Shown here piece after piece: positions 9,506 through 32,128 of a DNA stretch of 64,000 nucleotides. The stretch spans positions 672,001 through 736,000 of the forward strand of contig CAXXTH010000017.1 in NCBI GenBank assembly GCA_963668025.2, given 5' to 3'. Every line of letters starts with the position of its first letter. Within the stretch, counting starts at the first letter, position 1. This DNA is from Candidatus Hydrogenedentota bacterium (GTDB lineage: Bacteria > Hydrogenedentota > Hydrogenedentia > Hydrogenedentales > SLHB01). The notes beneath the pieces are model-generated. The model saw only the letters and a program-made list of their open reading frames with translations, did not search any database and had not been told where the DNA came from. Made by a program: the position numbers and the translations under genes.

Positions 9506-9590
9506 AAGATCTGGATTTGAGACCACTAAATACACCAAACACACGAAGATTTGTAGGGAGGGGCTTGCCCCACCGCTCAAGGCTAATACG
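9506..9590. repeat. ~85-bp dispersed intergenic repeat containing a GTAG-type REP palindrome (second copy 23116-23199)
   Basis: AAGATC(T/C)GGATTTG.GACCAC.AAA.ACAC.AAA.ACAC.AA..TTTGTAGGG.GGGGCT.GCCCC.CC shared between the two sites. Confidence 0.8.
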
Positions 9591-9614
9591 GTAAGTAACC
9601 AAAGGAGCCAAATC

Positions 9615-10415: not shown

Positions 10416-10451
10416 GACGTTATGTCCCGCTGGACATAACAGGAGACGGAC

Positions 10452-11747: not shown

Positions 11748-12384
11748 ACCGGCGGATTTTGATGCAAAGGTGCGCCAAAAGGGCTTGGCGTGGCTCAACA
11801 AGAATGGATTTCTTGTTTCTGGACCCATTCCCGCTGGCACCAAATTGCCTTCATATTGGAGAGACTGCCTAAAAGAGCTGCATGCCGCTTATAATGGCAT
11901 TTGCGCGTATGTCTGTATCTATATCGAGCCCGTTACTGGCTCTAGAACCGTCGAGCATTTCGTAGCAAAATCTAAAGACATTGGCCTTGCATATGAATGG
12001 AGCAATTACAGACTCGCATGCGGCAAGATGAACAGCCGCAAATGTGACTTCGACGATGTTCTAGATCCTTTCCTTATTCAAGATAAGATTCAAGATAAGA
12101 CTTTCTTTCTTGATTTGGTGACGGGAGGGATCTTCTCCAATCCGGCATTGGAAGCGGAAACCAAGCAAAAGGCAGATGACACCATTAAGCGTTTGGGGCT
12201 TGATGATCCCGAATGCCGTCAAGTGAGATCCGCTTACTTCGACGATTATATCAATGGCCAAATAACCAGTGATTACCTGCGACGAAAAAATCCTTTTGTA
12301 TGGATAGAAGCATTCAGGCAGAATCTACTCAAACCGGAAGATCTAGCATATGACTACTTCGACGCTTTACAGAATATCAAGTAG
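11722..12384 (+). CDS. HNH endonuclease, PtuB-like
   Basis: CAYVC...VEHFVAKS....AYEWSNYRLAC..MNSRK motif; start overlaps the ATPase 3' end; lower GC than flanks. Confidence 0.8.
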   Translation: MIPVHPKPEPADFDAKVRQKGLAWLNKNGFLVSGPIPAGTKLPSYWRDCLKELHAAYNGICAYVCIYIEPVTGSRTVEHFVAKSKDIGLAYEWSNYRLACGKMNSRKCDFDDVLDPFLIQDKIQDKTFFLDLVTGGIFSNPALEAETKQKADDTIKRLGLDDPECRQVRSAYFDDYINGQITSDYLRRKNPFVWIEAFRQNLLKPEDLAYDYFDALQNIK

Positions 12385-13852
12385 CGTGATTAGTCTGTGT
12401 CTCCTACTCTTCTGCTCAACGCAGGCGGGGTTCGCAGAAGACGCGCCGCCCTTGCCGCCGGGACTCGGCGGTGGCGCGTCGGATGCCGGTCCGGCGTTGC
12501 CTGCGGGACTGGGCGATAGCGCCTCCTCGACGACACCGTCGCTCCCACCGGGCCTAGGCGGAGGCGAGACCAACGGACCTGCGTTGCCGCCTGGACTTGG
12601 CGCTGAAAGCGCCGATTCGGCGAAAGAAGCGCAAACAGCGGGACCGCAAACACTGTTCGAGCGGCTGAGGCTGCATGGATTCTGGGAGGCGCGCGGGGGC
12701 GTCCGCACGCAGGAAGACGCCGCGCAACCCGCTGACGCCATCATCGGTGAAACGCGTTTGCAGTTAAAGTCTCGCTATGATTTCGAGGCCCATGCCAACG
12801 CGCGCATCGAAGCCACCGCGGACCTGTATCTCGACGGCGTCCTCGAGGACCCCGAGGCGGACTTGCGGATGCTGCGGCTCACATGGCCCGTGTCGGACAC
12901 CGTGGACGTGCGCATCGGACGGCAAGTGCTCACGTGGGGTACGGGCGACATGCTGTTCATCAACGATTTGTTCCCGAAGGACTGGCCGTCGTTTTTCATG
13001 GGGCGCGACGCCGAATATCTCAAAGCGCCTTCGGATACGGTGCGCATCGGCTGGTATCCGGGGCCTGTAAATATCGAGTTTGTCTACACGCCGCAGTTCA
13101 CGCCGGACCGTTTCATCACGGGCGAACGGATTAGCTACTGGAATCCGCTCCTCGGGCGGCATGGCGGCCAGCACGAGCAGGTGGATTACAACGCCCCGAG
13201 CACGTGGTTCGAGGACGATGAATTCGCCCTGCGGATTTATAAGAACATCGGGGGCTATGAATTCGCGGTCTACGGATACTCTGGTTACTGGAAAAGCCCC
13301 GGCGGGCAGCGGTTGATTCCGCTCATGCAGGCGTCGTTCCCGAAATTGAACGTCTATGGGGCCAGCGTGCGCGGCACGGTGGGGCGGGGCATTGGCAACA
13401 TCGAGGTGGGTTATTACGATTCTAGGCAAGACCGCCCGGGCGGCAATCCGCTTATCAACAACAGCGAATTCCGCCTGCTGGCAGGATATGAACAGGAACT
13501 AGCGAAGGAATTCACCGGCGCGTTCCAATATTATCTGGAACATATGATGGACTATGGCGAGTACGAGCGCGCCCGGTTCTTCTTCGAGCCGAAACGCCAT
13601 CAAAACCGCCAGGTGCTCACGGTCCGTTTGACGAAGCTGCTCATGAACCAAAATCTGACGCTGTCACTATTCATGTATTACAGCCCCACAGATGGCGACG
13701 CGTATTTGCGCCCGCTCACTCAATACAAGATGAACGATCATTGGACCTTCGAGCTGGGCGGGAATGTGTTTGTGGGCAGGTTGGATACGTCCTTCTTCGG
13801 CCAATTCGAGGACAACACGAATGTGTATGCCTCGGCGCGGTATTCCTTTTGA
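12350..13852 (+). CDS. Outer-membrane beta-barrel protein (DUF1302-like, MMPL-associated) with N-terminal LPxGLG repeats
   Basis: Signal peptide AGFA; RIGRQVLTWGTGD motif; alternating beta-strand pattern; C-terminal ARYSF barrel signature; start uncertain. Confidence 0.75.
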   Translation: MTTSTLYRISSSVISLCLLLFCSTQAGFAEDAPPLPPGLGGGASDAGPALPAGLGDSASSTTPSLPPGLGGGETNGPALPPGLGAESADSAKEAQTAGPQTLFERLRLHGFWEARGGVRTQEDAAQPADAIIGETRLQLKSRYDFEAHANARIEATADLYLDGVLEDPEADLRMLRLTWPVSDTVDVRIGRQVLTWGTGDMLFINDLFPKDWPSFFMGRDAEYLKAPSDTVRIGWYPGPVNIEFVYTPQFTPDRFITGERISYWNPLLGRHGGQHEQVDYNAPSTWFEDDEFALRIYKNIGGYEFAVYGYSGYWKSPGGQRLIPLMQASFPKLNVYGASVRGTVGRGIGNIEVGYYDSRQDRPGGNPLINNSEFRLLAGYEQELAKEFTGAFQYYLEHMMDYGEYERARFFFEPKRHQNRQVLTVRLTKLLMNQNLTLSLFMYYSPTDGDAYLRPLTQYKMNDHWTFELGGNVFVGRLDTSFFGQFEDNTNVYASARYSF

Positions 13853-14204: not shown

Positions 14205-17200
14205 TTATGGCTGTTTCTCCGCTTCATGCAAACATTCATTCAGCCGCTGGGTGAGCACCTCGACATAGGGGGAGGCGAAAATCGCGGCATGGTTGCCGGG
14301 GATGGATATTTGGGTGACGCCGCCGTGTGCATAGTCGCGCCATCCGCAGGCCGTAGCTTCCATTATAGCCGCATAAGCGGGTTCGGGGGCCGTGTGCATC
14401 AGCGTGATGGAGCCGCCGTAAGGCTTTGGCTGGTAGGCGTTGTACTCGCGGGTGTTGGCCCGAAGAGTCGAGAAAACTTGGCGCGTCTCGGGTATGTCTA
14501 TCATCGACAGGCGCTCACTATTGGAGAGCGTGTCGGCCACATTCGCTTTGCGGCGCAGAATGCGGTATACGCCATCGAGCAAGGCCCAATTCAGAAAATC
14601 CCAGAATGCCATGCGATTGCCTTGGCCTTGCATACGCTTCTGTAGCACCTGTAGCATCATGTAAATCCCGTCGCGGATGTACGGTATGGAGTCGCGCGTG
14701 TAGGCGGCGGTGACGTGTAGTATGCGCCAGATTCGCCCGAGGCGTCCCAGTATGCCTCGAGGAGGCTGCATGATGTCATGCTTCAACACGGCATCAAACA
14801 GGATGAGGCTGTCCACGCGCTCGCCTTCGGCTTCGAGCTGGCGCGCCATTTCGAATGCCACGACGCCGCCATAAGACCAGCCCCCGAGAAAATACGGCCC
14901 GTGCGGCTGCACACGCCGCATCGCGGCGATGTAGTGCGTGGCCAGTTCCTCGATGCTGGATATGGATACGGGCTGGCTGCCCACGCGCGGATCTTGCAGG
15001 GCGTAGAAGGGCCTGCCCGGCTCGATATGCAAGGCCATGCCATAATAAGGAAACGCAACGCCAGTGGCGGGAGCGGCGCAGAAAAATGGGCGCTTGCCGC
15101 CTTCGGCGCGCAGGGGGACCAGCACCCCGCCTTCGACCACGGGAGCAGAATCAGGCGCATCCGGGCCGCCCGACAGTGACGCGGCGAGGCCTTCGACCGT
15201 GGGAGTCGAGAACAGCGCCTGGATGGATACTTCCATCCCCGTGGCTTCCTTGAGGCGGGACAGCAACTGTATGGCGGTGAGGGAATGCCCGCCTAACTCG
15301 AAATAATTATCATGCACGCCCACGCGCTCGACACCGAGGACTTCTTGCCATACACGCGCGATGGTTTCTTCCTCGGGCGTTCGCGGGGCCACATAGGCGC
15401 GCGTGGCGGCCAGAGGCTCATCGAGTTCGGGCAGCGCCCGCCGGTCCACTTTGCCGTTGGGCGTGAGGGGGATGCGTTCGATGGCCATGTAGCGGGCCGG
15501 AACCATGTGGTCCGGCAGGGCCGCGCGGAGATGGGCCGCCAAGTCTTGCGGCGCGGGCGCGCACCCTTCCGGTGCATAATAAGCGACAAGCTGTTTGCCG
15601 CCGCGCCCGTCGTCGCGTGCGTCCACCACGGCCTCGCGCACTTGCGGGTGGCTGGCCAGCACGGCCTCGATTTCACCTAGTTCGATGCGGTAGCCGCGCA
15701 CTTTTACTTGCGTGTCGATGCGGCCCAGGAACTCGATTTGGCCGTCGCTCCGGTATCGGACCAAGTCGCCCGTGCGGTACATGCGCGCGCCGGGCGTGTT
15801 CGAGAAGAGATCTGGCACAAAGGCTTTCGCGGTCAAGTCCGGGCGGTTCAAATAACCGCGCGCAAGGCCATATCCGGTGATGTGGAGTTCGCCCGGCACG
15901 CCGATGGGCGTGGGGCGGCCATGCGTATCGAGAATGTAGACGCGCACGTTGGACATGGGGCGTCCGATACTGGGTGCGCCATCGATGCCCGGTTCGAGAA
16001 TGCTGCCTGTCGCCATGACCGTATTTTCCGTGGGGCCATATAAATTCGCGAATTGGGATGGAAACGATTTGGGCGGATAGCGGTGGAGCGTGTCGCCGCC
16101 AGTATAGATAAACCGCATCGAAACCGAAGTGGGCCATTCCAGGCCGAGTATGCCTTCCGCGATGGAGGTCGGCAAGAAGCAACCTGTTAGCCGTTCCGAC
16201 AGGATCCAATCGCGCACGGCTTCATATGACGATAAGGAATTCAGATCCTGGACGTGCAGGCTGCCGCCCGCCGTGAGGGCCCACCACGTTTCATACGTTG
16301 CCGCATCGAATGCGGGGCCGGAGACGCAGGTCGAGCGGTCTTCAGGCGTACAGGCGAATGTCTCATGGTGCCACTGCAACAGATGCCGGAGCGGGCCGTG
16401 GTTAATCTCGACTCCCTTGGGCTGGCCCGTCGAGCCGCTGGTGTAAATGACATACGAGCGGTCCTCGGGGCCTATCGGAATATTCAGCTCCGAATCCGGC
16501 TCTTGGGCGAAGGCCGTCCATTCGGGGTCCACGGAGAACATGCGTACGCCGCTTCCCTCGAACTGGGCGGCGCATTCCGGCCCGGCCAGGAGCGCACGTG
16601 CGGCGGAATCCTCGAGCATAAAGGCGATACGGCTAGGGGGATAGGCGGGGTCGATGGCCACATAGGCCGCTCCGGCTTTCCATACCCCCAGCCACGCCAC
16701 AGGCAATTCCGGGCAGCGTTTCATACACACCGCCACGAGATCGCCGGGTTGCACGCCATGGCGGCGCAGCGTATGGGCGATCTGGTTCGCGCGGGCGTTC
16801 AGTTCGCCATAGGTGAGGCGGCGTCCGCGCCCTTCGATGGCCAGCGCCTCGGGGCGGGCCATGGCGTTGTCGCGCACCCAATCGGGCGGGCATGGCGCAT
16901 CAGGATATGTACGCTCCGTGGCGTTCCATTCGACCAGCACGCGGTGGCGTTCCGCTTCGGACAGCGTGGCAATGGTTCCCAAAGGCGCGTCTTCATTTGC
17001 GGCGATGTGTTCGAGCGCCGTGCGCCATTGTCCAAGAACGCGCTCCACTTCCGCTTCGCTGAAATAGCGGCGGTCGTATACCAGCCGGAGCAGAAGGGTT
17101 TGCCCGACGGCCACGGCGGTGAGGGGATAATTGGTGCGTTCATACATGCCGTGTTCGAGGAGCCGCAGATCGCCCATGCCATCTCGGAGGGAATCATCCA

Positions 17201-20200
17201 TGGGGTAATTCTCGAACACCAAAATACTGTCGAACAGGGATTTCGAGGCCGGGATTCCGCTCCAGCGCTGGATATGCGCCAGCGGGGCGAAATCAAACGC
17301 GCCCGATTCGATGGCGCGTTCATGCAGGGAGCGCAGCCACGCGGATGCCGGCTCGTCTTCCGGAATGGACACCCGCACGGGGATAGTGTTGATGAATAGG
17401 CCCACCATGGACTCGATGCCGGGAATTTCCGGTGGGCGGGAGGTCACGGTGGCTCCGAAAACGATATCGTCTTCATCGCTCCGGCGCGCCAGCACAAGCG
17501 CCCATGCGCCTTGGAGTATCGTATTGAGCGTGATGCGATGCCGCCGCGCCAAGGCATTCAACGATTCGCGCATTTCCGGCGGCAGCGTGGCCTGCATGTT
17601 TCCCCGCCCTGCGTCCGCACCCGCCGCGCCTGCGCGGTCCGCGCACAATGGCGTGGGATGGGTGAAACCATCCAATACGCCCCGCCAATACGATTCGGCG
17701 GCGGCGTGGTCTTGAGATTCGAGCCATGCAATATAATCGCCGTAAGGTGGAGCAGCAGAGCGCGCGCCCGCGCCGCCTTGGCGCATGGCTTCGTAATCAG
17801 CCAGCGTTTCCCGCAGCAGGACGGGCATGCTCCACCCGTCAATCAATAGATGGTGAGTGGTCCATACGAGCCGCCAGGCAGTGTCGCGCAGGTGCAGCAA
17901 GGTGAACCGGGTCAGCGGCGCGCGTTCGAGTGCAAACCCGCGTGCGCGGTCGGCCTCGATGAAGGATTCGAGGCGAGTAGCTTGTTCTATTTCGTCAACG
18001 CCGCGCCAGTCTTGCACGGTAAACTCGGGTTCGGCGCGGCGGAACACCACTTGGCGGGGTTCGCCCGCGCCTTCATACACAAAAGCCGTGCGCAGAATGG
18101 AATGGCGGGCGCAGGCGTTGCGCCAGGCTTGTTGGAATGCCGCCACATCAAGGACGCCGCTCAACAGGCCGTTCCACTGCTCGATGTACATGGCTTCCGA
18201 GGGAGCAAGAAGCGTGTGGAAGAGCATGCCTTCCTGCATGGGTGACAGGGGGTAGATATCTTCGATATCACGCGGGCCTGCCACGCCTTCAAAACGCGCG
18301 ATGAGGCGGTCGAGCTGTTCCACATCCAGGTGGGATCGAGGGAAATCGGAAGGCGTGCACCCCCCTGAAGCGGGGTCTTGGCAATGGGCGATCAAGGCGC
18401 GCAAGGCGTTCATGTAGTATTCGGCCCATTGCGCTATCGTTTCGGTGCGATGCAGGTTCTCACTATAGCTCCATTCCAATCCCAAGCGGCCATTGAGCAT
18501 CATGGCGTTAATGACGATGGCATGAGTCCGGCGGTTTCTCGGATCGTGCATCGGGCCGGCCGACTCATCCGCTAGAGACATCTGGGGCGCATCGAACTGG
18601 CCTAAGTAATTGAACGCCACATCTGGCTCGGGGGTTGAAGCGAGAGCGTCACGGTACGTGGATTCTTTACGGAGATACCGCAGCAATCCATATGGCGCGC
18701 CATGCCCTGGTATGTGGCGAAGCTGTTCTTTGATAGACTTGATGCGCTTTCCGAGGTTTGCGCCAGGCAACGTTTTCAGTAGGACAGGATACGCGGACGT
18801 GAACCAGCCCACCGTGCGCGAACAATCCGGCCCATCGGGCAAAACGTCGCGCCCATGGCCCTCGATAGTTAAGGAAACGGCCCGTGAACCTGTCCATGCG
18901 GTTAAGGTATCCGCCAACGCCGTGAGCAACAGATCATTAATCTGCGTGCGATACGCCCGTGAGATGTCCTGAAATAAAACGCGGTTCTCTTCGGGATTGA
19001 GGAAAACCAAATGCACTCGAGCCGAGGCTTCGGAATTCCCTCCCCCAGGAAAATCGAGTGGAAGGAGCGCGGCCTGTTTCCAGGAGGCATCCAGCCAATA
19101 TGCAGCGCAAGCAGCCACTGTCTCGGACTCGGCGTATTCGGCCAAGGCGTCCGCCCAACATTTATACGAGGCTGTTTTCGAAGGGAGCACAATTGCCCGG
19201 CCTTCCCGGACTTGGGCGTATGCGGATTGCAGATCCTCGATCAGGATACGCCAAGAGACGCCATCCACAACCAAGTGATGCGCCGCCAGCAGCAGCCGCG
19301 AAGAGCGTTCCGCGCCAAGGTTCATGTATAACGCCCGGAACATGGGGCCGCGTGTGATATGAAGGGTTGCTTGGAACGCGGAAGCGGCAGCCTCGATGGC
19401 GGCGGGCAGGCGTTCGGAATCCCATTCCGATAAATCGCACGTTTCCAGCAAGCCATCGAATGAAGGCTCCGCATATGACTGGACCCATCCATCCACGGAT
19501 GGCGCATACCTCAGCCGCAAGGCGTCGTGATGCTCGACCAAGGCCTGCAATGCTTTTTGCAATGCTTCCGATTCAAATCTCTCCCGAATCTCAATCAGGG
19601 GCGCTTGGTTCCAATAATGCTGTGTTTGGGCGTCCGCGCCCGGGCCTTCGAAGAACCAGCGCTGGATAGGCGTCAGCGGGACGGTTCCCGATGCGAGGCC
19701 CTGTTCCGCGGCGGGCAGCGCTTCGCGCCCGCCCATGGCCGCGGCGAGGCCCGCCACCGTCTGATGCTGAAAAAACAACTTGGGCGTGATGGCCAGCCCG
19801 GTTTGATTGGCCCGGGCCACGACCTGAATGCTCAAAATTGAATCGCCGCCCAGCTCGAAGAAGTTGTCGCGCCTTCCCACACGCTCGACGCCGAGCACTT
19901 CGCGCCAGATGCCCGCGAGACGCTCCTCGGCGGCATTGCGCGGGGCTTCGTAGGCATCGGATTCGCGTGCGTCATAATCGGGGGCAGGCAGCGCGCGGCG
20001 GTCAATCTTGCCGCTTGCCATTAGCGGCATGGCGTCGAGAAAGACGAAGTGCGCGGGAATCATATACGTGGGCAGGCTCGATTCGAGAAACGCACGCAAA
20101 ACCAGCACATCGAGCGGCGCGCCCTTTGATACGGCATACGCCACGAGACGCTTGCCGCCGGATGCGTCCTCGAGCGCCACGACGGCGGCTTCGCGCACGT

Positions 20201-23012: not shown

Positions 23013-23115
23013 TGTAAACTTCCTTGCCTGCCCCAGATGAACCAGAGCCAACTGCCGATATATTGGAAACCGCGAATGGATGCCAATAAACTTATCGCAG
23101 TATAGCTGCAATTAA

Positions 23116-23690
23116 AGATCCGGATTTGGGGACCACGAAACACACGAAATACACTAAACTTTTGTAGGGCGGGGCTGGCCCCGCCACTTAAAAGATACGC
23201 TCAAACAAAATTTTACTCAGGTTTTTACACGGATATATGGAAACATATAGATTTACGGAGTAAAACATCCGAGTATTCATCATGTGGTGAAAGCGTCATA
23301 AAAGAAACAATCTTGTTTATTCTTTTTCGCCGACCTTGAATTGAGCCATTTTCAACGCAAGGCGCAGAGGCGCGGAGAACGCAAAGTATCGCAGAGATCC
23401 ACTTTTCTCTATTCTCGAATGTGCGAATAAGCGGTTCGAGAGTATTTTCTCTACTTTGCGGATCTCTGCGTTCTCCGCGCCTCTGCGTTGATAATAACCG
23501 TCCACCGGCCGTTCTTCACCACTGGGCTAAATTGTTACAATGTTTTTTCGTGCAGCGGAATTGCCATTAACGAATCTTGTCCATCTTGTAAATCATGTCG
23601 AAAAAAAATCTCCTCTTCACGGAGGTTTGCCATGTATTCGTGCCATGTATTTACGTTTATTCGAATCCATTCGCGGTTCAAGAATCGGCC
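23116..23690. repeat. Mosaic of short dispersed repeats in the NRPS-TEII gap (REP-like, MITE-end-like, AACGCA..GCGCAGAG inverted pair)
   Basis: Copy of the 9506 repeat; inverted pair 23354-23384 / 23463-23489; segments shared with 49475-49510 and 49588-49605; ATTCG..TCCATTCGCGGT shared with 62808-62837. Confidence 0.7.
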
Positions 23691-23788
23691 CGGTGCTTGA
23701 AAGGGCAAATACCGGAACAGAAGCTCGGTTCGTCGTACGGCCATTTGCTCCCCTGGAGCGAATGTCGTAAGAGAACCGGCATGCGGAT

Positions 23789-24577
23789 TCAAGCGACGTT
23801 CCGGGCCTCCTGGGCCAATATGCGCGCAAGCGTCCATAAGAGTAATTGGGGGCGTTCGAGCAGGTAGAAATGGTCGCCGGGGAACATATGCTTGTCAAAT
23901 GCCGCGCAAGTTTGTTCGGACCAAGCCCGAATGCTCTGTTCCGGCACCATGGAATCTTGCAGGCCGCCTAATGCCGTGATTGGGCACTCGAGGGGCGCTT
24001 CGTCCGTATACGAATAGGTTTCACACACCTCGAAATCGGCCCGTAACACAGGCAACAGCAATTCGAGCCATTCTTCATGTTGCAACGCTTCTTCGGGCGT
24101 GCCGTTGTAGCCGCGCACGCATTCGAGGAAAGTCTCGTCGGGCAAGCCGTGTATGGGCGGGCCTGGATACGGCAGTTGCGGCGCGGAATGGCCGGATACC
24201 AGCAGCCGCATAGGTAATGACGCGCCTTGGCGGCGCAGATGCCGCGCCAGCTCGAAACCGATCAATGCACCCATGCTGTGCCCGAAAAAAATGAACGGTT
24301 TATCTAAAAATGGCTCGATAGTTCGCGCGAGGGAGTCGACCAGCGGGGCCATGCGCGTGAAAGGCGCTTCATGGGCTTGCCCGCAGCGCCCGGGAAGCTG
24401 CATGCAGCAAAGCTCGATGGACTCGGGCAGATGCTCCGCCCATGGCCGGAAAACAGAAGGATTGCCCCCTGCGTGGTGGAAGCAGAAAAGACGCATGGCC
24501 GCCGACGGATTCGGCTTGACCATGCTCCCTGGCTGGCTAATCCACTGCGAAGACTTCATGCGTTTCCTTTTCGGCAC
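23789..24577 (-). CDS. Type II (editing) thioesterase
   Basis: LFCFHHAGG, QLPGR, GHSMG, LRADF, PGDHFY motifs. Confidence 0.92.
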   Translation of the reverse strand: MPKRKRMKSSQWISQPGSMVKPNPSAAMRLFCFHHAGGNPSVFRPWAEHLPESIELCCMQLPGRCGQAHEAPFTRMAPLVDSLARTIEPFLDKPFIFFGHSMGALIGFELARHLRRQGASLPMRLLVSGHSAPQLPYPGPPIHGLPDETFLECVRGYNGTPEEALQHEEWLELLLPVLRADFEVCETYSYTDEAPLECPITALGGLQDSMVPEQSIRAWSEQTCAAFDKHMFPGDHFYLLERPQLLLWTLARILAQEARNVA

Positions 24578-24638
24578 ACCGCTTCTAGCCTGCTAGGCTT
24601 GGCGACGCGCCATCCTCGTTTCAACGTTGGCGCAATTA

Positions 24639-27600
24639 TTATATGCGCCCTTCCTCGAATACTTCCGTTTCCGTGGGATGCACCCTAGCATCCGCTTCGG
24701 CGGGAAGCTCATAACCTAATTCCACCGCAATCTGGCGGGCAGCTTCTCCCAGCGGATTCGGCAGATGAATACGCCGCCACGCTTCGCCCAAGCCGCCTTC
24801 GATGCGGCTGCGCGCGAGAAAGTTTGGATCGCCAATACCTAGCGACGATTCCTTGACGCCGTCGGTCATTCGTTTCCCATTATACGGTTCCAGCACCGCT
24901 GGATCGAATAAAATATCTAAAAAGCCGCATACTCGGCGCATCACTATTTCGGGAGCGCTCACGAGTTCTTCATATTTCACAAGCAAACAACGTTCTTTAC
25001 CGACACTTCGTCCAAATTCGAGGAGGTTTCGGTTGCTGCGAACCCATACTTCTTCCGCGAGTGCATAGGGATCCACCCCGCCCGCTCCGATCAATTTGTC
25101 GAAACGGTTTCGCACAAATGACTCTATCACCGCATACGGGTGCCGCGCCAGATGTATATATCGAGCCCCCTCGAACCACATCTCCGCCCGCAAGAGCGTA
25201 CCCTGTTCTACCGCGTACGACGGTGATTTGTCCAATAACAGTTTTGGGGCCGCCGCTTCCAGAAGGAGGCGGTACATTTCCCATGTGGGCTGCTCCGCCG
25301 CCACCTGCTCGGATACGAGTGCTTCGGCGGATGCCAGGGCGCGGCCGTCCAACTCCATCAGCGCCCGCTGAAGGCCTTCTCCAAGATAGCTCAAACCCAG
25401 TGCTTCTTGCCGTTCGCTCATGGTCGCGAAGGGCAGCAAATGCAATTCCGGCGGGCAAAATAGCCCGGGATGCCCCGCCAGCATGACGCGCATGAGCGTC
25501 GAACCCGAACGTGGGCTCGATAGCAAGAACGCCGCACCTGGAAGCCGCCGTGGCGGAGCTTCATCTGGCGTGCCGCCGCCCCGCACCCAGCGGGCCAGCG
25601 ATTCGCTGTCAATGGCTCCCGAGGATGCGCCGCCCCGGCCTTCGGCGCGCTCTAGTTCTTCCGATAAATAAGCCGCCAGCTCGGCGACAACGGGGCGCTC
25701 GAAGACTTCGCGCGGATGCACGCGGAATCGCAGATCGTGCTCGAGTGTCCGCACAATCTCCATAACCATAATAGAGTCAAGGCCCAACTCGAGCACGTTT
25801 TGCTCATCGGGTATCGCGGAACCCGCCATACCCAATACGCGGGCCAGTTGCACCCGAATATAACCCCGAAGGAGGGCGATTCGTTCCATTGGAGCCGCCG
25901 TGCGAATAGCTTGCGGGCTGGGGCCTTCTTCTTCCAGCACCGGCGCGGATAGAAGGCTGTCCAAAAATCCCGAATCCGCCAGCGCATGGCTTGCATGGGC
26001 CAGTTTTTCCCAATCGGCGCGAAAAACGCATACATGCGTCCAGTCGGCTTCGAGGGCGCGCCAGAGCGCCGCCATGGCTTCTTGGGGCGGAAGGCCGGTG
26101 ACGCCCCGGCGTTCGAGCTGGGCGTTCATGCCCGTCTCGACGGCCATGCCCACTTCGGACCATGGCCCCCAATTCATCGCCAAAGCGTGCAGGCCTTGGG
26201 CGCGCCGCCATTGGACAAAGGCGTCGAGCCAGGCGTTGGCCGCCGCGTAATTGCCTTGTCCCGGCGAACCCAGGAGCGAAGCGGCGGATGAATATACGAT
26301 GAAGAAATCGAGGGGCTGGCCCTGAAATAGCTGATGGAGCGCCCATGCCCCCGCAGCCTTGGGCTTGATCACGGACGCCAGCGACGCGGCGTCCAGATGA
26401 AGCAGGAGCTTGTCGTCTAGAATCCCCGCGCCGTGCAACACACCGGCGATGGGCGGGGCTGGGGCCTGGAGGAAGCCCGCATGCCACGCGCGTAGCGCTT
26501 CGAGTTCCGACACATCCACTGAGGCCGTATACACGGTTGCGCCTAGGGCTTCGATGCTCCGGACCGCCGCCACGCGCAATCCGTCCCGGCTATTCGGCTC
26601 CAAGGCGTTCCACGCTTCGCGCGGGGGGAGAGGCGTGCGCCCGAGTAAAATAATATGCCGTGCGCCTTGTTCCGCCAGGCCGCGCGCCGCTTCGAGGCCC
26701 AAACCGCCCAATCCGCCGGTGATGAGATAGCTGGCGTCCGGGCGTATCCGCATCGGCGGCATGGGAGCATTGGACGTTTGTTTACGGGCCAAACGCGCTT
26801 CATACCGCACCGCGCCGCGCCAGGCGGCTTGCCGTGCGCCGGGGGCGTTCATGGATTCGCGCCATAATGCTTCCACTTCCGGCGGTGCGCTCATCGGATC
26901 GAGGTCAACGAGCACCGGCCCGAATTCGGGATGCTCCTGCATGACCACCCGTCCCAGCCCCCATAATAGCGATTGCGCCAGCGCCGGCGACTCCAAGCTA
27001 TCCGCGACGGCTTGCGCGCCGCGCGTCACGATCATCAGGCGCGCATCGGTCACGATGGGGCGCGTCAGCAGGGCTTGGAGCAGATAGACCAGGCCCTCCG
27101 CCGCCGTGTGGTGCGCAAAACCCTCGGAATGCGCATCGAGGCCCCACGCATAAAGCACGGCGCATGCGGCGGCATCGCCGAGTGCCTTGTCGAGCAATTG
27201 CCGGTATTGCATGGGGGAGGCGGACGCAAGCTCCGCGCGTTCGCCCTGATACGTAAATGCAGCGCCGGGATAGGCCACGACACATCGCCCGCCCGCCGCG
27301 CGCGCTTGCGCCGCGAATGCCTCCGCCACGCCAGACGCATCGGCGAAAATCAACCAGGGCGCTTCGGTGAGGAAAGCGCCGTTCCCTGCGGACGCGCCGG
27401 TTTGTTTCCATTGCAATTCATATAACAGCCCATCCACATCGAGCGCCGCCTTCGGCGGTGGTGTGGCTTGCCGGGCGGCGGTGCGCGCCTGCCCATCGGC
27501 GATCCAATAGCGTTGCCGTTGGAAGGGATACGTGGGCAGCGCCATGCGGCGTCCTGGGCGAGCCTGCTCGAAGGCCGCCCAATCCACGGGCGCGCCTTGC

Positions 27601-30404
27601 ACATATAGCGCCGCCAGCGAAGGCAGCAAGGATTCCCAATCGCCGCGTCCTTGTTTGAGCGATGGCAGCCAGGAAGCCGTGTTTTCTGGCAGACAACGGC
27701 GGCCCATCGGAAGCAACGCGGGCGTAGGGCCGATTTCGAGATAGGTGTCTATACCCGATGCGGCAAGCGATTCAATACCCGCCTGGAAGCGCACGGCGGC
27801 CCGGGCGTGACGCCGCCAATACGCGGCGTCGAGGACGGTTCCCGGCGGCAGCAGCGTCCCATCCACATTGGACGCCAGCGGCATCGTGAGCGGGTGATAC
27901 GCCACGCGCTGGGCGAACGACTCGAAGGCGTCCAGCATAGGTTCGATGCAGCGGGAATGGAAGGCGTGCGACACATCCAGGCTTTTCGTGCGTATCGCAC
28001 GCACTTTGGCTTCCTGCAACACGGCTTCTAGCGCGTCCGAACGCCCGGAAATGACGGTGAGGTCCGGGGCGTTCACGCCCGCGATGGACATATCCGCCCC
28101 ATGGGGTGCGAGCAATTCGGCGGCGGCATCTTCGCTGGCATACACCACGGCCATGCCGCCTTCGCGGGGCAAGGCGTCCATCAGCCGGGCGCGTTCCGCC
28201 ACGAGGCGCAGGCCGTCTTCTAATGAAAACGCCCCCGCCACGCAGGCCGCCAAATATTCGCCCAAGCTGTGTCCAAGCGCCGCCACGGGCTGGACGCCCC
28301 AGGCGAGTCCGCATTGGGCCAGGGCGTATTCGAGGGCGAACAACGCGGGCTGCGCCCAAGCAGTCTGGCTAATAATCGAGGGGTCTGGGCATGCGCCGAA
28401 CAGCACATCCCGCAGCAGCAGGGTCCGATGCGGGCGCAAGATTTCTTCGCACTGCGCGATGATTTGGCGGAACCGGGGCTCGGTTTCGTACAACTGCCGC
28501 CCCATGCCCGCGTATTGCGCGCCTTGCCCCGTGAACAGAAATGCGATATGGCGCGAATGGGCGTCCGTACGCGCCATCGTGCGCGCATCCGTCTCGCCAC
28601 ACGCCAGGGCTTCGAGGCGCTGGGCAAGGGCCGCCATGTCTTCACCGGGCGCGAGCAATAGCGCCGCACGGCGTTCATGGTGCGTGCGCCCCGCCGCGAC
28701 GGTATGGCAAACGTCGCGCGCGCTTATATCGGGATGCTGTTTAAAATATCGGGCGTAGACGCGTGCGAGGGCGTTCAACGCGGGTTCGGTCTTCGCGGAA
28801 AGAAGCAACACCTCGCTGGGCCGGGCAGGCAAAACCTCCTTCACGGTCGTTTCGGGCGCTTCCTCGATGATGACATGAGCGTTCGAGCCGCCGAATCCGA
28901 AAGCGCTCACGCCCGCGCGGCGGGGCTTTTCGCTCTTGGGCCATGCGGCGGCTTCTGAAGAAACCGCTAATCCGGCGCCGAGTGCAATTAAGGGATTAAT
29001 GTCCTTAAAATGTAGATGCGCGGGAATAAGTTCGTGTTGCATCGCGAGCACGGTTTTGATGAGGCCCGCCATGCCCGCCGCGGATTCGAGGTGCCCGATA
29101 TTGGTTTTCACGGACCCGACGAGGCAAGGCTTGCCAGGCGCGCGCCCTTCGGCATACACGCGCTGGATCGATTCCATCTCGATGGGATCACCCAGCGAGG
29201 TGCCCGTACCGTGGGCTTCTATGTACTCCACGTCCGAAGCGTCCACGCCCGCGCGCGCGAGGGCGTCGCGCATGACGGATTGCTGCGCCGCGCCATTGGG
29301 GGCAGTCAGGCCATTGGTGCGCCCGTCGTGGTTGACCGCCGCACCGCGAATGATCGCCGCGATGGGATCACCATCGGCGAGGGCGTCGCGCAGGCGTTTC
29401 AACACCACCACGCCACAGCCTTCCGAGCGCACATAGCCGTTTGCGCTGGCGTCGAAGGTTTTGCATCGGCCATCTGGGGCGAGCATGCCCGCCTCGGAAA
29501 AGGCGATGGTGATATCCGGCGTCAGGATCAGGTTGACGCCCGCCGCCAAGGCGCAATCCGCATCGCCGTAGCGCAGGCTTTGACAGGCCTGATGCACCGC
29601 CGCGAGCGAAGCCGAACAGGCCGTATCAAGGGCCACGCTGGGGCCATGCAAATCGAGCAAATAGGACAGCCGGTTCGCCGCGATGCTGAAGGCGCTGCCC
29701 GTGGACGTATAGACGCTCAACGGCCCGCCGCCAAATTGGAATTGAGAGTAATCGCTGCTGCTGATGCCCACGAAAACCCCCGTGCGCGAGCCCGCCAGCT
29801 TGGTGGCTGGAATGCCGGCGTCTTCGAGGGCCGCCCAGGCCGTCTCGAGCAGGATGCGCTGTTGCGGGTCCATGGCCGTGGCTTCGCGGGGGGATATGCC
29901 GAAAAAAGCGGCGTCGAATTGGTCCACGCCGTCCAAATATCCACCGAAACGGGTGCAGGTTTTGCCGGGCGTTCCCGGTTTTGGGTCATAGAGCGCATCG
30001 GCGTCCCAACGGTCCGGGGGCGTTTCACGGATGGCGTCACGGCCGCCGCATAACAGCTCCCAGAATTCTTGAGGGGAAGAAGCGCCGGGGAACCGGCAGC
30101 CTATGCCAATGATGGCGATGGCGTCCTCGATGGCCCCGTTACTGGAAGCGGAATGGGCGGATGATTCCGCTTCACCGGCGAGATGGGCGGCCAGCGCGGC
30201 TACCGAAGGATAATTGTATACGATGGTAGGCGACAAGCTGCGGTCCAGCAAATCCTCGAGGTCGCCTGATAACGTTACGGCGTCGCGTGACGACAAGCCA
30301 TAGCTCTCGAAGGGGGCGCCGGGATCGATGGCTTCAGGGGGAATGTCCAGTTCGGATGCAATCTGGGCGGTGAGCCATGCCTGGATGTCTGCTTTGCTCT
30401 TCAC
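24639..30404 (-). CDS. Type I PKS: ACP-KS-AT-KR-ACP-sulfotransferase (Ols/CurM-like, no fused TE)
   Basis: GLSS ACP; KS DTACS/HGTGT/NIGH; AT GHSLG + HAFH (malonyl); KR TGGLGGLG, LDD, YAAAN; ACP GLDS; PAPS loop SPRSGSTL; ends FEEGRI. Confidence 0.93.
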   Translation of the reverse strand: MKSKADIQAWLTAQIASELDIPPEAIDPGAPFESYGLSSRDAVTLSGDLEDLLDRSLSPTIVYNYPSVAALAAHLAGEAESSAHSASSNGAIEDAIAIIGIGCRFPGASSPQEFWELLCGGRDAIRETPPDRWDADALYDPKPGTPGKTCTRFGGYLDGVDQFDAAFFGISPREATAMDPQQRILLETAWAALEDAGIPATKLAGSRTGVFVGISSSDYSQFQFGGGPLSVYTSTGSAFSIAANRLSYLLDLHGPSVALDTACSASLAAVHQACQSLRYGDADCALAAGVNLILTPDITIAFSEAGMLAPDGRCKTFDASANGYVRSEGCGVVVLKRLRDALADGDPIAAIIRGAAVNHDGRTNGLTAPNGAAQQSVMRDALARAGVDASDVEYIEAHGTGTSLGDPIEMESIQRVYAEGRAPGKPCLVGSVKTNIGHLESAAGMAGLIKTVLAMQHELIPAHLHFKDINPLIALGAGLAVSSEAAAWPKSEKPRRAGVSAFGFGGSNAHVIIEEAPETTVKEVLPARPSEVLLLSAKTEPALNALARVYARYFKQHPDISARDVCHTVAAGRTHHERRAALLLAPGEDMAALAQRLEALACGETDARTMARTDAHSRHIAFLFTGQGAQYAGMGRQLYETEPRFRQIIAQCEEILRPHRTLLLRDVLFGACPDPSIISQTAWAQPALFALEYALAQCGLAWGVQPVAALGHSLGEYLAACVAGAFSLEDGLRLVAERARLMDALPREGGMAVVYASEDAAAELLAPHGADMSIAGVNAPDLTVISGRSDALEAVLQEAKVRAIRTKSLDVSHAFHSRCIEPMLDAFESFAQRVAYHPLTMPLASNVDGTLLPPGTVLDAAYWRRHARAAVRFQAGIESLAASGIDTYLEIGPTPALLPMGRRCLPENTASWLPSLKQGRGDWESLLPSLAALYVQGAPVDWAAFEQARPGRRMALPTYPFQRQRYWIADGQARTAARQATPPPKAALDVDGLLYELQWKQTGASAGNGAFLTEAPWLIFADASGVAEAFAAQARAAGGRCVVAYPGAAFTYQGERAELASASPMQYRQLLDKALGDAAACAVLYAWGLDAHSEGFAHHTAAEGLVYLLQALLTRPIVTDARLMIVTRGAQAVADSLESPALAQSLLWGLGRVVMQEHPEFGPVLVDLDPMSAPPEVEALWRESMNAPGARQAAWRGAVRYEARLARKQTSNAPMPPMRIRPDASYLITGGLGGLGLEAARGLAEQGARHIILLGRTPLPPREAWNALEPNSRDGLRVAAVRSIEALGATVYTASVDVSELEALRAWHAGFLQAPAPPIAGVLHGAGILDDKLLLHLDAASLASVIKPKAAGAWALHQLFQGQPLDFFIVYSSAASLLGSPGQGNYAAANAWLDAFVQWRRAQGLHALAMNWGPWSEVGMAVETGMNAQLERRGVTGLPPQEAMAALWRALEADWTHVCVFRADWEKLAHASHALADSGFLDSLLSAPVLEEEGPSPQAIRTAAPMERIALLRGYIRVQLARVLGMAGSAIPDEQNVLELGLDSIMVMEIVRTLEHDLRFRVHPREVFERPVVAELAAYLSEELERAEGRGGASSGAIDSESLARWVRGGGTPDEAPPRRLPGAAFLLSSPRSGSTLMRVMLAGHPGLFCPPELHLLPFATMSERQEALGLSYLGEGLQRALMELDGRALASAEALVSEQVAAEQPTWEMYRLLLEAAAPKLLLDKSPSYAVEQGTLLRAEMWFEGARYIHLARHPYAVIESFVRNRFDKLIGAGGVDPYALAEEVWVRSNRNLLEFGRSVGKERCLLVKYEELVSAPEIVMRRVCGFLDILFDPAVLEPYNGKRMTDGVKESSLGIGDPNFLARSRIEGGLGEAWRRIHLPNPLGEAARQIAVELGYELPAEADARVHPTETEVFEEGRI

Positions 30405-32128
30405 GTCGCCGCCCGGACTCCTTCCAATGCTCCCGATAGATATAGCGCCTTGCAGGCGCGCCGCTGGAGTTTGCCACTGGTGGTCATGGGGACGCTGCCC
30501 GTTTTCACGAGCACGATGTCATGAACATGCAGTTCATGAACTTGATTTACTGCCGTGCGGACCGCGCGTTCGACTTCCTCCGCGTTCAGGTTGCGCAAAT
30601 AAGGCAAGGCGACTTCCTGTATGATGACGAGCAGTTCCTGGCCGTCTTCTTCGATGGAGAAGGCGGTTCCTATCGCGCCCTCGAGGGCGGGGTGGCTTTG
30701 GGAGGAGGTTAATTCGATGTCTTGCGGATAATGGTTCACGCCATCAATAATGATGAGATCCTTGATGCGCCCCGCTACAAAGAGCTCGCCGTCGTGCATA
30801 AAGCCCAGATCGCCGGAGCGAAGATAGGGGCCTTCGCCCGTATCGGAGATATAGGTGTTGACGACGCGGGCCGATTCTTCCGGCGCTTCCCAATAACTGG
30901 ACATCACACACGGCCCGGCCACCCAAATCTCGCCTACGCGCCCCTCGGGGCAGCGCGCCAAGGTTTCCGGGTCCACGATGGCCAGTTTCGTTTCGGGCGA
31001 TGGCTGCCCGGAACCGGCATGGATGCGCCCCGTTCCTGGCGCGGCAAGGACGACTTCCCGGCGCGTGAGGGCTTCGGGATCGACTTCGAGCCCCACGGGG
31101 CGTTTCGGCCCGCCACCCGCGACAAACAGCGTAGCTTCGGCCAGCCCGTAGCAGGGCAAAAACGCCTCCTTGCGGAATCCGCATGGAGCGAATTTCTCGG
31201 AGAATCGCTCGATGGTGCTGTATTGCACCGGCTCCGCGCCATTGAACGCCACTTTCCACGAGCTGAGGTCGAGCTCCTTGAGTTGCTCGGGCTTGACTTT
31301 GCGCACGCAGAGGTCATACGAGAAATTCGGCCCGCCGCCGGTGCGCCCTTGATAGCGAGTAATGGCCCGCAGCCAGCGTATCGGGCGCTGCAAAAACGCC
31401 AAAGGCGACATGACCACGCCAAAAGAACCGAGATACATGGGCTGCAAAATATTCCCGATAAGGCCCATATCGTGGTAATAAGGCGTCCAACTGATGACCG
31501 AGGATTCTTCGGTGTGCTGGAAGGCCTGTTGGATCATCACCTGGTTATGCAGAATGTTGCCATGGGTGACTTGCACGCCCTTCGGGAAGGCGGTCGAGCC
31601 GGAAGTATATTGTAGAAACGCCAGCGTATCTGGTTCCGAGCAGGGGTCTTCCCATGGCTCGTCCGGCAGGCTGTCCACATCTTCCATGAACAACCATTCG
31701 AGGCCGGCGGCCATACCAGTCTCTTCACGCAAGGGAATGAGCCGCTCAAAAATGCCGTGTTCCGTAAGGGCGAAGCGCGCCCGGGAATTGTTCAGGATAT
31801 TTTGCAATCGAGGCATGGTGCGGTTGTTATGGGGCGGGCACACGGGCACCGCCACCACGCCGCCATATAAACATCCGAAGAATGCGAGGATGAAGTTCAG
31901 TCCCGGTGTGAACAGGAGCACGGCCCGTTCACCATGGCCGCCCCGGCGGGCCAATTCCGCTCCGAGCGCCCGGGCGCGCCGGTCCAGTTCGGCATAGGTT
32001 AACCGGCTTTCATCTTGTTCGCCATCATTCAAAAATATATACGCTATTTGATCCGGCTGATGGAGCACCCGCTCGCGCAATAATTCGACAAGCGTACGGT
32101 ATCCGACCTGCCGCCGAGAATCCATCAT
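30401..32128 (-). CDS. Fatty acyl-AMP ligase (FAAL)
   Basis: LQYTSGST, HDMGLIG, CYGLAEATL, FAAL insertion, SGDLGF, TTSGKLQR; GTGA overlap with PKS start. Confidence 0.92.
   Translation of the reverse strand: MMDSRRQVGYRTLVELLRERVLHQPDQIAYIFLNDGEQDESRLTYAELDRRARALGAELARRGGHGERAVLLFTPGLNFILAFFGCLYGGVVAVPVCPPHNNRTMPRLQNILNNSRARFALTEHGIFERLIPLREETGMAAGLEWLFMEDVDSLPDEPWEDPCSEPDTLAFLQYTSGSTAFPKGVQVTHGNILHNQVMIQQAFQHTEESSVISWTPYYHDMGLIGNILQPMYLGSFGVVMSPLAFLQRPIRWLRAITRYQGRTGGGPNFSYDLCVRKVKPEQLKELDLSSWKVAFNGAEPVQYSTIERFSEKFAPCGFRKEAFLPCYGLAEATLFVAGGGPKRPVGLEVDPEALTRREVVLAAPGTGRIHAGSGQPSPETKLAIVDPETLARCPEGRVGEIWVAGPCVMSSYWEAPEESARVVNTYISDTGEGPYLRSGDLGFMHDGELFVAGRIKDLIIIDGVNHYPQDIELTSSQSHPALEGAIGTAFSIEEDGQELLVIIQEVALPYLRNLNAEEVERAVRTAVNQVHELHVHDIVLVKTGSVPMTTSGKLQRRACKALYLSGALEGVRAAT

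What the first reader, a model, noticed from the sequence alone, without database searches (positions are those of the whole stretch)
14205..32128. Olefin-synthase-like PKS rewired into an NRPS: predicted 3-O-sulfated acyl-dipeptide (sulfolipopeptide) assembly line
Seen: FAAL, then ACP-KS-AT(HAFH)-KR(LDD)-ACP-sulfotransferase (SPRSGSTL), then a TEII, then NRPS C-A-T-E-C-A-T-TE, all co-oriented. Established: in cyanobacterial Ols (FAAL-ACP-KS-AT-KR-ACP-ST-TE) and curacin CurM, the ST sulfates the beta-hydroxyl and a fused TE decarboxylates and eliminates to a terminal alkene. Here no TE follows the ST, and the only free TE is an ordinary type II enzyme. Inference: the sulfate is retained and the (n+2) 3-sulfooxy-acyl chain is condensed onto a D-aa/L-aa dipeptide, giving an anionic sulfated lipo-dipeptide (surfactant or envelope lipid). 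I know of no characterised cluster with this layout. No PAPS-synthesis or PPTase gene is in the window.
Basis: partly seen in the sequence, partly recalled or inferred. Interest (0 to 1): 0.92.

Follow-up and report, generated by a model that had tools for sequence, protein, structure and literature searches.

The report
Sulfotransferase PKS feeding a dipeptide NRPS
An intact four-gene assembly line joins an olefin-synthase-type fatty-acid extension module, which ends in a sulfotransferase but has no decarboxylating thioesterase, to a two-amino-acid peptide synthetase, so it probably makes a sulfated lipo-dipeptide; this is an uncharacterised but recurring cluster type in the uncultured phylum Hydrogenedentota.

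Summary
On the minus strand lie a FAAL, a PKS (ACP-KS-AT-KR-ACP-ST), a free thioesterase and an NRPS (dock-C-A-T-E-C-A-T-TE), all with open frames and intact motifs.

- **ST domain:** it is a close relative of the Ols and CurM ST domains (E 8e-96 and 3e-93). Only 16-17 residues follow it.
- **Free thioesterase:** it is an ordinary RifR/RedJ-type TEII (158 bits). It scores at most 24.7 bits against 104 ST-fused thioesterases.
- **Hand-off to the NRPS:** this is well supported.
  - Five other genomes of the phylum have an ST-terminated PKS directly followed by an NRPS, and two more fuse ST to a C domain.
  - The PKS tails share a C-terminal EE[G/E]R[L/I] motif, and the NRPSs share a TubC-type docking domain.
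- **PAPS supply:** the genome has ATP sulfurylase and APS kinase.
- **Fate of the sulfate:** retention is the simplest reading but is untested.

The layout is not unique. NRPS-embedded ST domains linked to sulfated products (oci, dys) are already in print, as is the expectation that TE-less ST homologues give sulfated products. I rate it a new variant of a known kind, of moderate interest.

The parts
30401..32128 (-). Fatty acyl-AMP ligase (FAAL), 575 aa; its stop overlaps the PKS start by 4 bases
   Evidence: Pfam AMP-binding 4.8e-64 and AMP-dom_DIP2-like. NCBIfam's best full-length matches are fatty-acid--AMP ligase families, e.g. PRK05850 at 448.7 bits, below its curated cut-off of 775; the top row aligns only to the N-terminal part of an NRPS/PKS model.
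24639..30404 (-). Type I PKS, 1921 aa: ACP-KS-AT-KR-ACP-ST with no thioesterase
   Evidence: Pfam; domain order by phmmer; translation.
29007..30125 (-). KS domain (residues 94-466)
   Evidence: PF00109 1.4e-99 and PF02801 1.4e-46.
27600..28541 (-). AT domain (residues 622-935) with an HAFH motif. Reading this motif as malonyl-specific is from memory.
   Evidence: PF00698 6.4e-56; motif seen in the translation.
26154..26735 (-). KR domain (residues 1224-1417) with an LDD motif. Reading this as B-type, giving a D-3-hydroxyl, is from memory.
   Evidence: PF08659 2e-59; motif in the translation.
25665..25859 (-). Second ACP (residues 1516-1580), the carrier on which the ST would act
   Evidence: PF00550 best stretch.
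24693..25553 (-). CurM/Ols-type sulfotransferase domain (about residues 1618-1904)
   Evidence: PDB 4gox (Ols ST) 7.8e-96 and 4gbm (CurM ST) 2.6e-93. PRSGST, PPELH, DKSP and RHP(Y/F/H) are conserved in 7 of 7 aligned STs of the phylum.
24642..24692 (-). 17-residue acidic C-terminal tail ending EEGRI; proposed short docking motif
   Evidence: The C-terminal EE[G/E]R[L/I] motif is shared by the ST-terminated PKSs of G086, G100, G105, G106 and G111 and by P0111 and P0116.
23789..24577 (-). Free type II thioesterase, 262 aa
   Evidence: PF00975 2.2e-48. PDB RifR 4.1e-45 and RedJ-like 3qmw 5e-45, with no CurM TE among the hits at E up to 0.01. At most 24.7 bits against 104 ST-fused TE tails.
23016..23788 (.). 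Non-coding spacer made of dispersed repeat elements between the TEII and the NRPS
   Evidence: No ORF with a family assignment. 60 matches in the own genome, up to 93% identity over 229 bases. No Rfam family at gathering threshold.
14205..23015 (-). NRPS, 2936 aa from the ATG (the longest ORF starts at TTG 23111): dock-C-A-T-E-C-A-T-TE
   Evidence: Pfam; HHxxxDG in all three C-type domains; 44% identical over its full length to the G086 NRPS, which has the same domain order.
22848..22988 (-). TubC_N-type N-terminal docking domain
   Evidence: PF18563 1.4e-11; conserved in the NRPSs that follow ST-terminated PKSs.
21498..22832 (-). C1, the condensation domain that would accept the PKS chain
   Evidence: PF00668 best stretch 94-538; normal HHIISDG motif; 40-45% identical to most of the other post-ST C domains (24% and 36% to two of them) and to internal L-type C domains.
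20007..21419 (-). A1 adenylation domain
   Evidence: PF00501 and PF13193; ten-residue signature extracted using a position mapping recalled from memory.
18354..19673 (-). Epimerisation domain
   Evidence: Second Condensation-family stretch with HHLVVDG. The E-type motifs were recognised from memory.
16932..18260 (-). C2, the condensation domain after the E domain
   Evidence: The assignment as D-donor type is from memory.
15435..16868 (-). A2 adenylation domain
   Evidence: signature.
14208..15110 (-). Terminal type I thioesterase with a long lid insert
   Evidence: PF00975 3.2e-23 over its first half. PDB best matches are NRPS TEs (4zxh 7.7e-25, NocB TE 1.6e-23), with no CurM TE at E up to 1.
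6614..13852 (+). Possible export unit: an MMPL/HAE3 RND transporter (6614-9457), a LolA-like protein (9615-10415) and a 500-aa protein (12350-13852). A PtuA/PtuB-like pair interrupts the unit. The link to the cluster is weak.
   Evidence: Pfam and NCBIfam. The same three genes lie next to the ACP-ST/NRPS genes in G086. The G086 homologue of the 500-aa protein has a sub-threshold DUF1302 match. In G105 the MMPL ortholog is on a different contig from the cluster.

Best explanation
This is a FAAL-primed hybrid PKS-NRPS assembly line.

1. The FAAL adenylates a fatty acid (Cn) and loads it on the first ACP.
2. KS and AT add one malonyl unit.
3. The KR reduces the 3-keto group to a 3-hydroxyl.
4. 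The CurM/Ols-type ST sulfates that hydroxyl with PAPS while the chain sits on the second ACP.
5. No decarboxylating TE follows. Instead, the PKS's short acidic C-terminal tail docks on the TubC-type domain of the NRPS.
6. C1 condenses the 3-sulfooxy-acyl chain onto amino acid 1, which the E domain epimerises to D. C2 adds amino acid 2 (L).
7. The terminal TE hydrolyses the product.

The predicted product is a (Cn+2) 3-sulfooxy-acyl-D-Xaa-L-Xaa acid, an anionic lipo-dipeptide. The free TEII is an editing enzyme.

What is shown: domain content, intactness, homology, and recurrence of the ST-to-C junction.
What is inferred: ST activity, hand-off of the sulfated chain, retention of the sulfate, and the identity of the amino acids (probably hydrophobic, uncertain).
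For: - **Domains and motifs** are intact.
- **ST:** about 55-60% identical to the solved Ols and CurM STs. The PAPS loop and the E-x-H and K-S positions are invariant in 7 of 7 phylum STs, which are only about 50% identical overall.
- **Hand-off:**
  - Of 19 other ST loci in the phylum, 5 are ST-terminated and directly followed by a dock-C NRPS, and 2 fuse ST to C.
  - The downstream NRPSs have 1, 2 or 3 modules plus a TE.
  - Among the 120 best database proteins, 6 ST domains are followed in the same protein by a C domain and 8 others end right after the ST.
  - A tail motif and docking domain are conserved.
- **TEII:** RifR/RedJ-like, unrelated to ST-fused TEs, and absent from the stretches downstream of the ST examined in 4 relatives.
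- **Terminal TE:** an ordinary NRPS TE.
- **PAPS supply:** ATP sulfurylase and APS kinase are present. No PAPS-reductase-family gene was found in the 93.75%-complete genome.
- **Precedent for retention:** the oci and dys NRPSs carry ST domains, and dys is tied in the passage read to a sulfated glyceric acid unit. A published statement says TE-less ST homologues likely give sulfated metabolites.
- **Chemical inference:** once C1 turns the thioester into an amide, the alpha protons are much less acidic, so elimination of the 3-sulfate becomes unlikely.
Against: - No product, expression or enzyme data exist.
- In the two biochemically studied members of this ST family (CurM, Ols) the sulfate is a leaving group. 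This is from memory, plus the Ols description read.
- In the ST tree the TE-less domains do not form their own clade. They are scattered among ST-TE domains, and the window's ST sits alone on a 0.39 branch. No sequence signature of a 'retaining' ST exists.
- I found no sulfate-binding signature in the post-ST C domains, although only 5 control domains were available.
- 771 bases of repeats separate the NRPS from the other three genes, so co-transcription is not assured.
- The A-domain signatures match no signature I could assign with confidence.
Confidence: 0.5

Rival explanations
1. The sulfate is a transient leaving group, as in CurM and Ols. During or after hand-off to the NRPS it is eliminated or displaced. 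Possible routes are a 2-enoyl chain, or ring closure by the incoming amine, an amide nitrogen or the released carboxylate. The final lipopeptide would then carry no sulfate.
For: The ST is 55-60% identical to the two studied leaving-group STs and nests among ST-TE domains in the tree. TE-less STs arose at least 3 times, which suggests a portable activating module. Relatives also place ST domains after NRPS T domains (P0028; L049). There, activation of a hydroxy-amino acid for elimination is conceivable.
Against: No partner enzyme for elimination is present. C1 has an ordinary HHxxxDG motif and no extra His. A DH domain would give an enoyl chain without spending PAPS. Amide formation disfavours E1cB elimination (inference). 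The published precedents for assembly-line STs without a TE are linked to sulfated products.
Confidence: 0.2
2. The ST is inactive, or is not used on this chain. The product is then a plain 3-hydroxyacyl-D-Xaa-L-Xaa, possibly lactonised by the TE through the free 3-hydroxyl.
For: No direct evidence of ST activity. 3-Hydroxy-acyl lipopeptides are common (from memory).
Against: 69 invariant columns, including the PAPS-loop and catalytic positions, across 7 STs that are about 50% identical. The ST is kept in every one of the 7 ST-to-C loci of the phylum. The genome makes PAPS.
Confidence: 0.1
3. The PKS and the NRPS are separate lines. The TEII (or spontaneous hydrolysis) releases a 3-sulfooxy fatty acid or a 1-alkene from the PKS, and the NRPS makes an unrelated product.
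For: The TEII gene lies directly after the PKS, and 771 bases of repeats separate it from the NRPS.
Against: The TEII is RifR-like and unrelated to decarboxylating ST-partner TEs. Relatives lack it in the stretches examined yet keep PKS-ST directly abutting the NRPS. A conserved tail and docking domain are present. ST-C fusions exist. The NRPS starts with a C domain and has no loading module of its own.
Confidence: 0.07

Closest known systems
Olefin synthase (Ols) of Picosynechococcus sp. PCC 7002 and its cyanobacterial homologues
   Same: FAAL, ACP-KS-AT-KR-ACP-ST order, and an ST highly similar to the solved Ols ST (4gox, 7.8e-96). The rare split form, with FAAL as a separate gene, is also described for Ols.
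   Different: Ols ends in a fused TE that decarboxylates and eliminates sulfate to give a 1-alkene. Here the protein stops 16-17 residues after the ST and an NRPS follows.
CurM, the terminal module of the curacin A synthase
   Same: KS-AT-KR-ACP-ST module; ST similarity 2.6e-93 to 4gbm.
   Different: CurM has the ST-TE pair for terminal-alkene off-loading (from memory). Neither thioesterase here matches CurM TE at the thresholds used.
NRPS-embedded sulfotransferase domains: OciA (Planktothrix cyanopeptolin/oscillapeptin) and DysB (dysinosin)
   Same: An ST domain sits inside a thiotemplate line and is followed by peptide extension. The dys cluster is linked to a sulfated glyceric acid unit (passages).
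   Different: There the substrate is a glyceric acid starter on an NRPS loading module. Here it would be the 3-hydroxyl of a PKS-extended fatty acyl chain. No glycerate-loading domain is found here. I did not compare their ST sequences with this one.
FAAL-PKS-NRPS lipopeptide lines that tailor the beta position before hand-off (mycosubtilin/iturin, microginin, puwainaphycin types; from memory)
   Same: A FAAL-loaded fatty acid, one PKS extension, beta-carbon tailoring on the ACP, then condensation onto amino acids.
   Different: Those lines use an aminotransferase to make a beta-amino acid. This one uses KR plus ST.
TubC-type beta-hairpin docking domains with C-terminal short linear motifs
   Same: PF18563 at the NRPS N-terminus and a conserved acidic C-terminal tail on the upstream protein.
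   Different: Here the motif follows a tailoring (ST) domain rather than a carrier protein. Binding was not shown.

Membership tests
CurM/Ols-type PKS sulfotransferase domain | Sequence similarity to the solved CurM and Ols ST domains | tested here: met
   4gox 7.8e-96 and 4gbm 2.6e-93, aligned over about 287 residues.
CurM/Ols-type PKS sulfotransferase domain | PAPS-binding loop and catalytic Glu/His and Lys/Ser positions (the residue roles are from memory; the structure paper is not held) | tested here: met
   PRSGST, PPELH and DKSP are identical to both solved chains and invariant in 7 of 7 phylum STs.
CurM/Ols-type PKS sulfotransferase domain | Position directly after KR-ACP of a malonyl-extending module | tested here: met
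Olefin synthase / ST-TE terminal-alkene off-loading system | A thioesterase fused after the ST that hydrolyses, decarboxylates and eliminates sulfate | tested here: not met
   16-17 residues after the ST. The free TE scores at most 24.7 bits against 104 ST-fused TEs. The NRPS TE matches ordinary NRPS TEs.
Olefin synthase / ST-TE terminal-alkene off-loading system | The product is a 1-alkene | not testable with these tools
   Needs GC-MS of an expressing strain.
Type II (editing) thioesterase | A free-standing PF00975 protein of about 250 aa, similar to characterised TEIIs | tested here: met
   PF00975 2.2e-48. RifR 157.8 bits; RedJ-like, SrfD and YbtT are also matched.
Assembly-line ST with retained sulfate (oci/dys type) | ST domain inside the line, followed by a condensation step | tested here: met
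   ST, then tail/dock, then C1 here. Fused ST-C in relatives.
Assembly-line ST with retained sulfate (oci/dys type) | Glyceric-acid loading (FkbH/GA) module as the ST substrate source | tested here: not met
   No such domain in the Pfam scan of the four proteins.
Assembly-line ST with retained sulfate (oci/dys type) | Sulfate ester present in the final product | not testable with these tools
   Needs LC-MS/MS.
TubC-type docking pair | N-terminal TubC_N domain on the acceptor protein | tested here: met
   PF18563 1.4e-11, 44.8 bits against a cut-off of 26.
TubC-type docking pair | Conserved short C-terminal motif on the donor protein | tested here: met
   EE[G/E]R[L/I] at the C-terminus in 5 of 5 aligned tails, and also in G106, P0111 and P0116.

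The most novel reading that the evidence does not exclude
The CurM-type ST has been recruited as a portable 'activate the beta-hydroxyl' module for NRPS-coupled chemistry. The downstream C domain or TE would use the 3-sulfate as a leaving group. Examples are elimination followed by aza-Michael addition and ring closure to a 4-alkyl beta-lactam, or displacement by the released carboxylate to give a small lactone. This would yield a lipopeptide scaffold class made by sulfate-assisted cyclisation. The ST domains that follow NRPS T domains in relatives (P0028, L049) would be the amino-acid version of the same logic.
Probability: 0.12. Interest if true: 0.85.

Novelty: new variant of a known kind. 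Interest (0 to 1): 0.55.

Why it matters
If the sulfate is retained, this would be the first PKS module I know of in which a CurM/Ols-type ST installs a permanent sulfate ester on a polyketide or fatty chain inside the assembly line. It would define a family of sulfated lipo-amino acids and lipopeptides with 1-3 residues in Hydrogenedentota, a phylum for which I know of no characterised natural products. It would also give engineers an in-line sulfation module. If the sulfate is instead used as a leaving group by the NRPS, that would be new assembly-line chemistry. Either way, the ST-to-C junction with its conserved docking pair is a compact four-gene target that can be tested directly.

Tried and rejected
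- **Docking test:** Complex prediction on the NRPS docking domain against the PKS tail (alignments A2 and A3) gave no verdict. It is evidence neither for nor against binding.
- **Expression:** The look-up of sequencing runs listed no RNA holder, so nothing can be said about expression. I did not lay reads.
- **Signature of post-ST C domains:** I compared 11 post-ST C domains with 5 control C domains. No clear sulfate-binding or other diagnostic column emerged, and the controls were too few. All post-ST C domains have a normal HHxxxDG.
- **A-domain specificity:** I extracted ten-residue signatures with regular expressions, using a position mapping recalled from memory. Several relatives were extracted imperfectly. 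The window's two signatures resemble hydrophobic (Leu-like) types only loosely, so no substrate is assigned.
- **TEII as a split-off ST partner:** rejected.
- **NRPS TE as a CurM-type TE:** rejected.
- **MbtH gene in the TEII-NRPS gap:** none found. The gap consists of repeats and has no Rfam match at gathering threshold. Promoter and terminator scans were at chance level.
- **Exporter link:** the MMPL/LolA-like/500-aa unit adjoins the cluster in the window and in G086. In G105 it lies on another contig, and it was not found in G100 with this query. This is suggestive only.
- **Literature:** six full-text searches found no paper describing a PKS ACP-ST feeding an NRPS C domain. 'Sulfated lipopeptide(s)' and 'sulfolipopeptide' had 0 occurrences. 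The library lacks most subscription journals, and MIBiG and antiSMASH were not available.
- **Papers, and what I saw of each:** for PMC5061366, PMC6520454, PMC4558948, PMC11730487 and PMC2533009 I read matched passages only. The CurM/Ols ST structure paper (McCarthy 2012) was not held, so the residue roles are from memory. Supplements were not opened. Tables S3 and S4 of PMC11730487, which list Ols homologues, may bear on how many TE-less homologues were already catalogued.
- **Unclassified matches:** of the 33 ST matches in the phylum, only 20 were given loci and classified. G106:C24 was fetched separately and classified. The other 12 were not classified.

Full report
**What is there.** Between 14205 and 32128, four co-oriented minus-strand ORFs fill the interval.

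- **FAAL (30401-32128).** Pfam gives AMP-binding plus a DIP2-like C-terminal domain. NCBIfam's best full-length matches are fatty-acid--AMP ligase families, all below their curated cut-offs.
- **PKS (24639-30404, 1921 aa).** It reads ACP-KS-AT-KR-ACP-ST.
- **Free thioesterase (23789-24577, 262 aa).**
- **NRPS.** Its longest ORF starts at TTG 23111, but it most likely starts at the ATG at 23015. It reads TubC_N dock-C-A-T-E-C-A-T-TE.

FAAL and PKS overlap by four bases, and the TEII starts 61 bases after the PKS. All frames are open and the core motifs are present.

**The ST and the two thioesterases.**

- The last 321 residues of the PKS match the solved Ols ST (4gox, 7.8e-96) and CurM ST (4gbm, 2.6e-93). 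The alignments are nearly full length.
- The PRSGST loop, the PPELH stretch and DKSP are identical to both solved chains. They are also invariant in seven STs of the phylum that are otherwise about 50% identical.
- The catalytic and PAPS-binding roles of these positions are from memory, because the structure paper is not held.
- The protein ends 16-17 residues after the ST.
- The free thioesterase is a standard type II enzyme. It scores 157.8 bits to RifR, with RedJ-like, SrfD and YbtT also matched, and no CurM TE match at E up to 0.01.
- Against 104 thioesterase regions that follow ST domains in database relatives, it reaches at most 24.7 bits. It is therefore not a detached ST partner.
- The NRPS's own TE matches ordinary NRPS TEs (AB3403, NocB TE) and has no CurM TE match at E up to 1.

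**Is the PKS really wired to the NRPS?** Comparative evidence says yes.

- *Protein database.* A search with the ACP-ST region found 804 proteins at E <= 1e-20. The best 120 proteins hold 122 ST domains. Of these, 105 are followed by a TE, 9 (including the window's) end right after the ST, 6 are followed in the same protein by a C domain, and 2 have other contexts.
- *Same phylum.* 26 of 135 genomes have such an ST. Of the 19 other loci that I could classify:
  - 12 are ST-TE;
  - 5 are ST-terminated and directly followed by an NRPS that begins with C, preceded in four by a detected docking domain;
  - 2 fuse ST to C.
- *Downstream NRPSs.* They have one module (G100), two modules with an E domain (G086, 44% identical to the window's NRPS over the full length) or three modules (G105, G106). 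All end in a TE.
- *TEII.* None of the four downstream stretches examined has a TEII. G086 has an Sfp-type PPTase instead.
- *Docking pair.* The ST-terminated PKSs share a C-terminal EE[G/E]R[L/I] motif, and the NRPSs share the TubC-type N-terminal domain.
- *GTDB species representatives.* At least 570 loci encode this ST type. Of the best 80, 77 are ST-TE and 3 are ST-to-C (one Anaerolineae, two Hydrogenedentota).

The record title and contig length of one of these loci place the window's family in Hydrogenedentota. The junction is therefore rare overall, but it recurs and is enriched in this phylum. Only in the window are a TEII gene and 771 bases of dispersed repeats (60 matches genome-wide) inserted between the PKS and the NRPS.

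**What happens to the sulfate.** This cannot be computed.

Points for retention:
- No decarboxylating TE is available.
- C1 is an ordinary C domain.
- Converting the thioester to an amide should stabilise a 3-sulfate against elimination (chemical inference).
- The genome encodes ATP sulfurylase and APS kinase. No PAPS-reductase-family gene was found at 93.75% completeness, so PAPS may serve mainly as a sulfuryl donor.
- The published assembly-line STs without a TE (oci, dys) are tied to sulfated glyceric acid units. A 2025 Ols paper states that TE-less homologues likely give sulfated metabolites (passages read).

Points against retention:
- The only biochemically studied members of this ST family make a leaving group.
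- TE-less STs do not form a clade. They arose at least three times within ST-TE lineages.

My estimates are retention about 0.5, leaving-group chemistry about 0.2, an inactive ST about 0.1 and separate lines about 0.07.

**Predicted product.** The predicted product is a (Cn+2) 3-sulfooxy-acyl-D-Xaa-L-Xaa acid. The (3R) configuration follows from the LDD-type KR, a reading I recalled from memory. The two A-domain signatures (using a mapping recalled from memory) look hydrophobic but could not be assigned.

An MMPL/HAE3 transporter, a LolA-like protein and a 500-aa protein lie next to the cluster, both here and in G086. The G086 homologue of the 500-aa protein has a sub-threshold DUF1302 match. 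Together they could be an export route. This is weak, because the unit is unlinked in G105.

**Comparison and novelty.**
- The line works like Ols or CurM up to the ST. It fails the defining ST-TE feature, so it is not an olefin synthase.
- It resembles the oci and dys lines in having an in-line ST followed by condensation. It lacks their glycerate loading module.
- Six full-text searches found no description of a PKS ACP-ST feeding an NRPS. The library is incomplete and MIBiG was not available.

I rate it a new variant of a known kind.

**Limits.** There are no expression data (one search listed no RNA holder). Supplementary files were not seen.

Noticed in passing
window 23016-23788: The spacer between the TEII and the NRPS is built from at least three families of short dispersed repeats (about 130-230 bases). 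There are 60 matches across the genome, the best at 93% identity over 229 bases. They look like MITE- or REP-like intergenic elements.
   Followed up: partly
window 10452-12384: An AAA_15/AAA_21 ATPase and an HNH protein with sub-threshold PtuB matches form a Septu-like (PtuA/PtuB-like) defence pair. It is inserted between the LolA-like gene and the 500-aa gene; G086 lacks the insertion.
   Followed up: partly
window 6614-10415 and 12350-13852; L119 12103-17631: An MMPL/HAE3 RND transporter, a LolA-like (DUF1329-like) protein and a 500-aa protein (weak DUF1302 match in the G086 homologue) form a conserved three-gene unit. This may be an envelope lipid transport system.
   Followed up: partly
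L119 17820-19599 and L028 (G086): In G086 the NRPS is preceded only by a 441-aa ACP-ST protein and a 421-aa ORF with a sub-threshold GNAT match. No FAAL, KS, AT or KR was found in the 19 kb upstream. The ST there may act on a chain supplied in some other way.
   Followed up: partly
L049 (Anaerolineae MAG); P0028: ST domains also occur directly after NRPS T domains. L049 reads FAAL | KS-AT-KR-ACP-ST | C-A-T-ST | C-A-T. P0028 reads C-A-T-ST-C-A-T-ST-TE. P0002 has two ST domains in tandem before a C domain.
   Followed up: no
L007-L016, L020-L022 (Hydrogenedentota): The ST-TE lines of this phylum carry a PF00975-like TE after the ST, rather than the Ols-like alpha/beta hydrolase seen in cyanobacteria. 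Four of them (L010, L014, L016, L022) have a second TE gene immediately downstream.
   Followed up: no
own genome (G000), whole: ATP sulfurylase and APS kinase are present. No PF01507 (PAPS reductase family) match was found in a genome estimated 93.75% complete, although the family was found in 14 of 14 control genomes.
   Followed up: partly
window 35024-36460: A 478-aa ORF has a weak, sub-threshold DDE_Tnp_1-associated match. It may be a transposase-related gene near the cluster.
   Followed up: no
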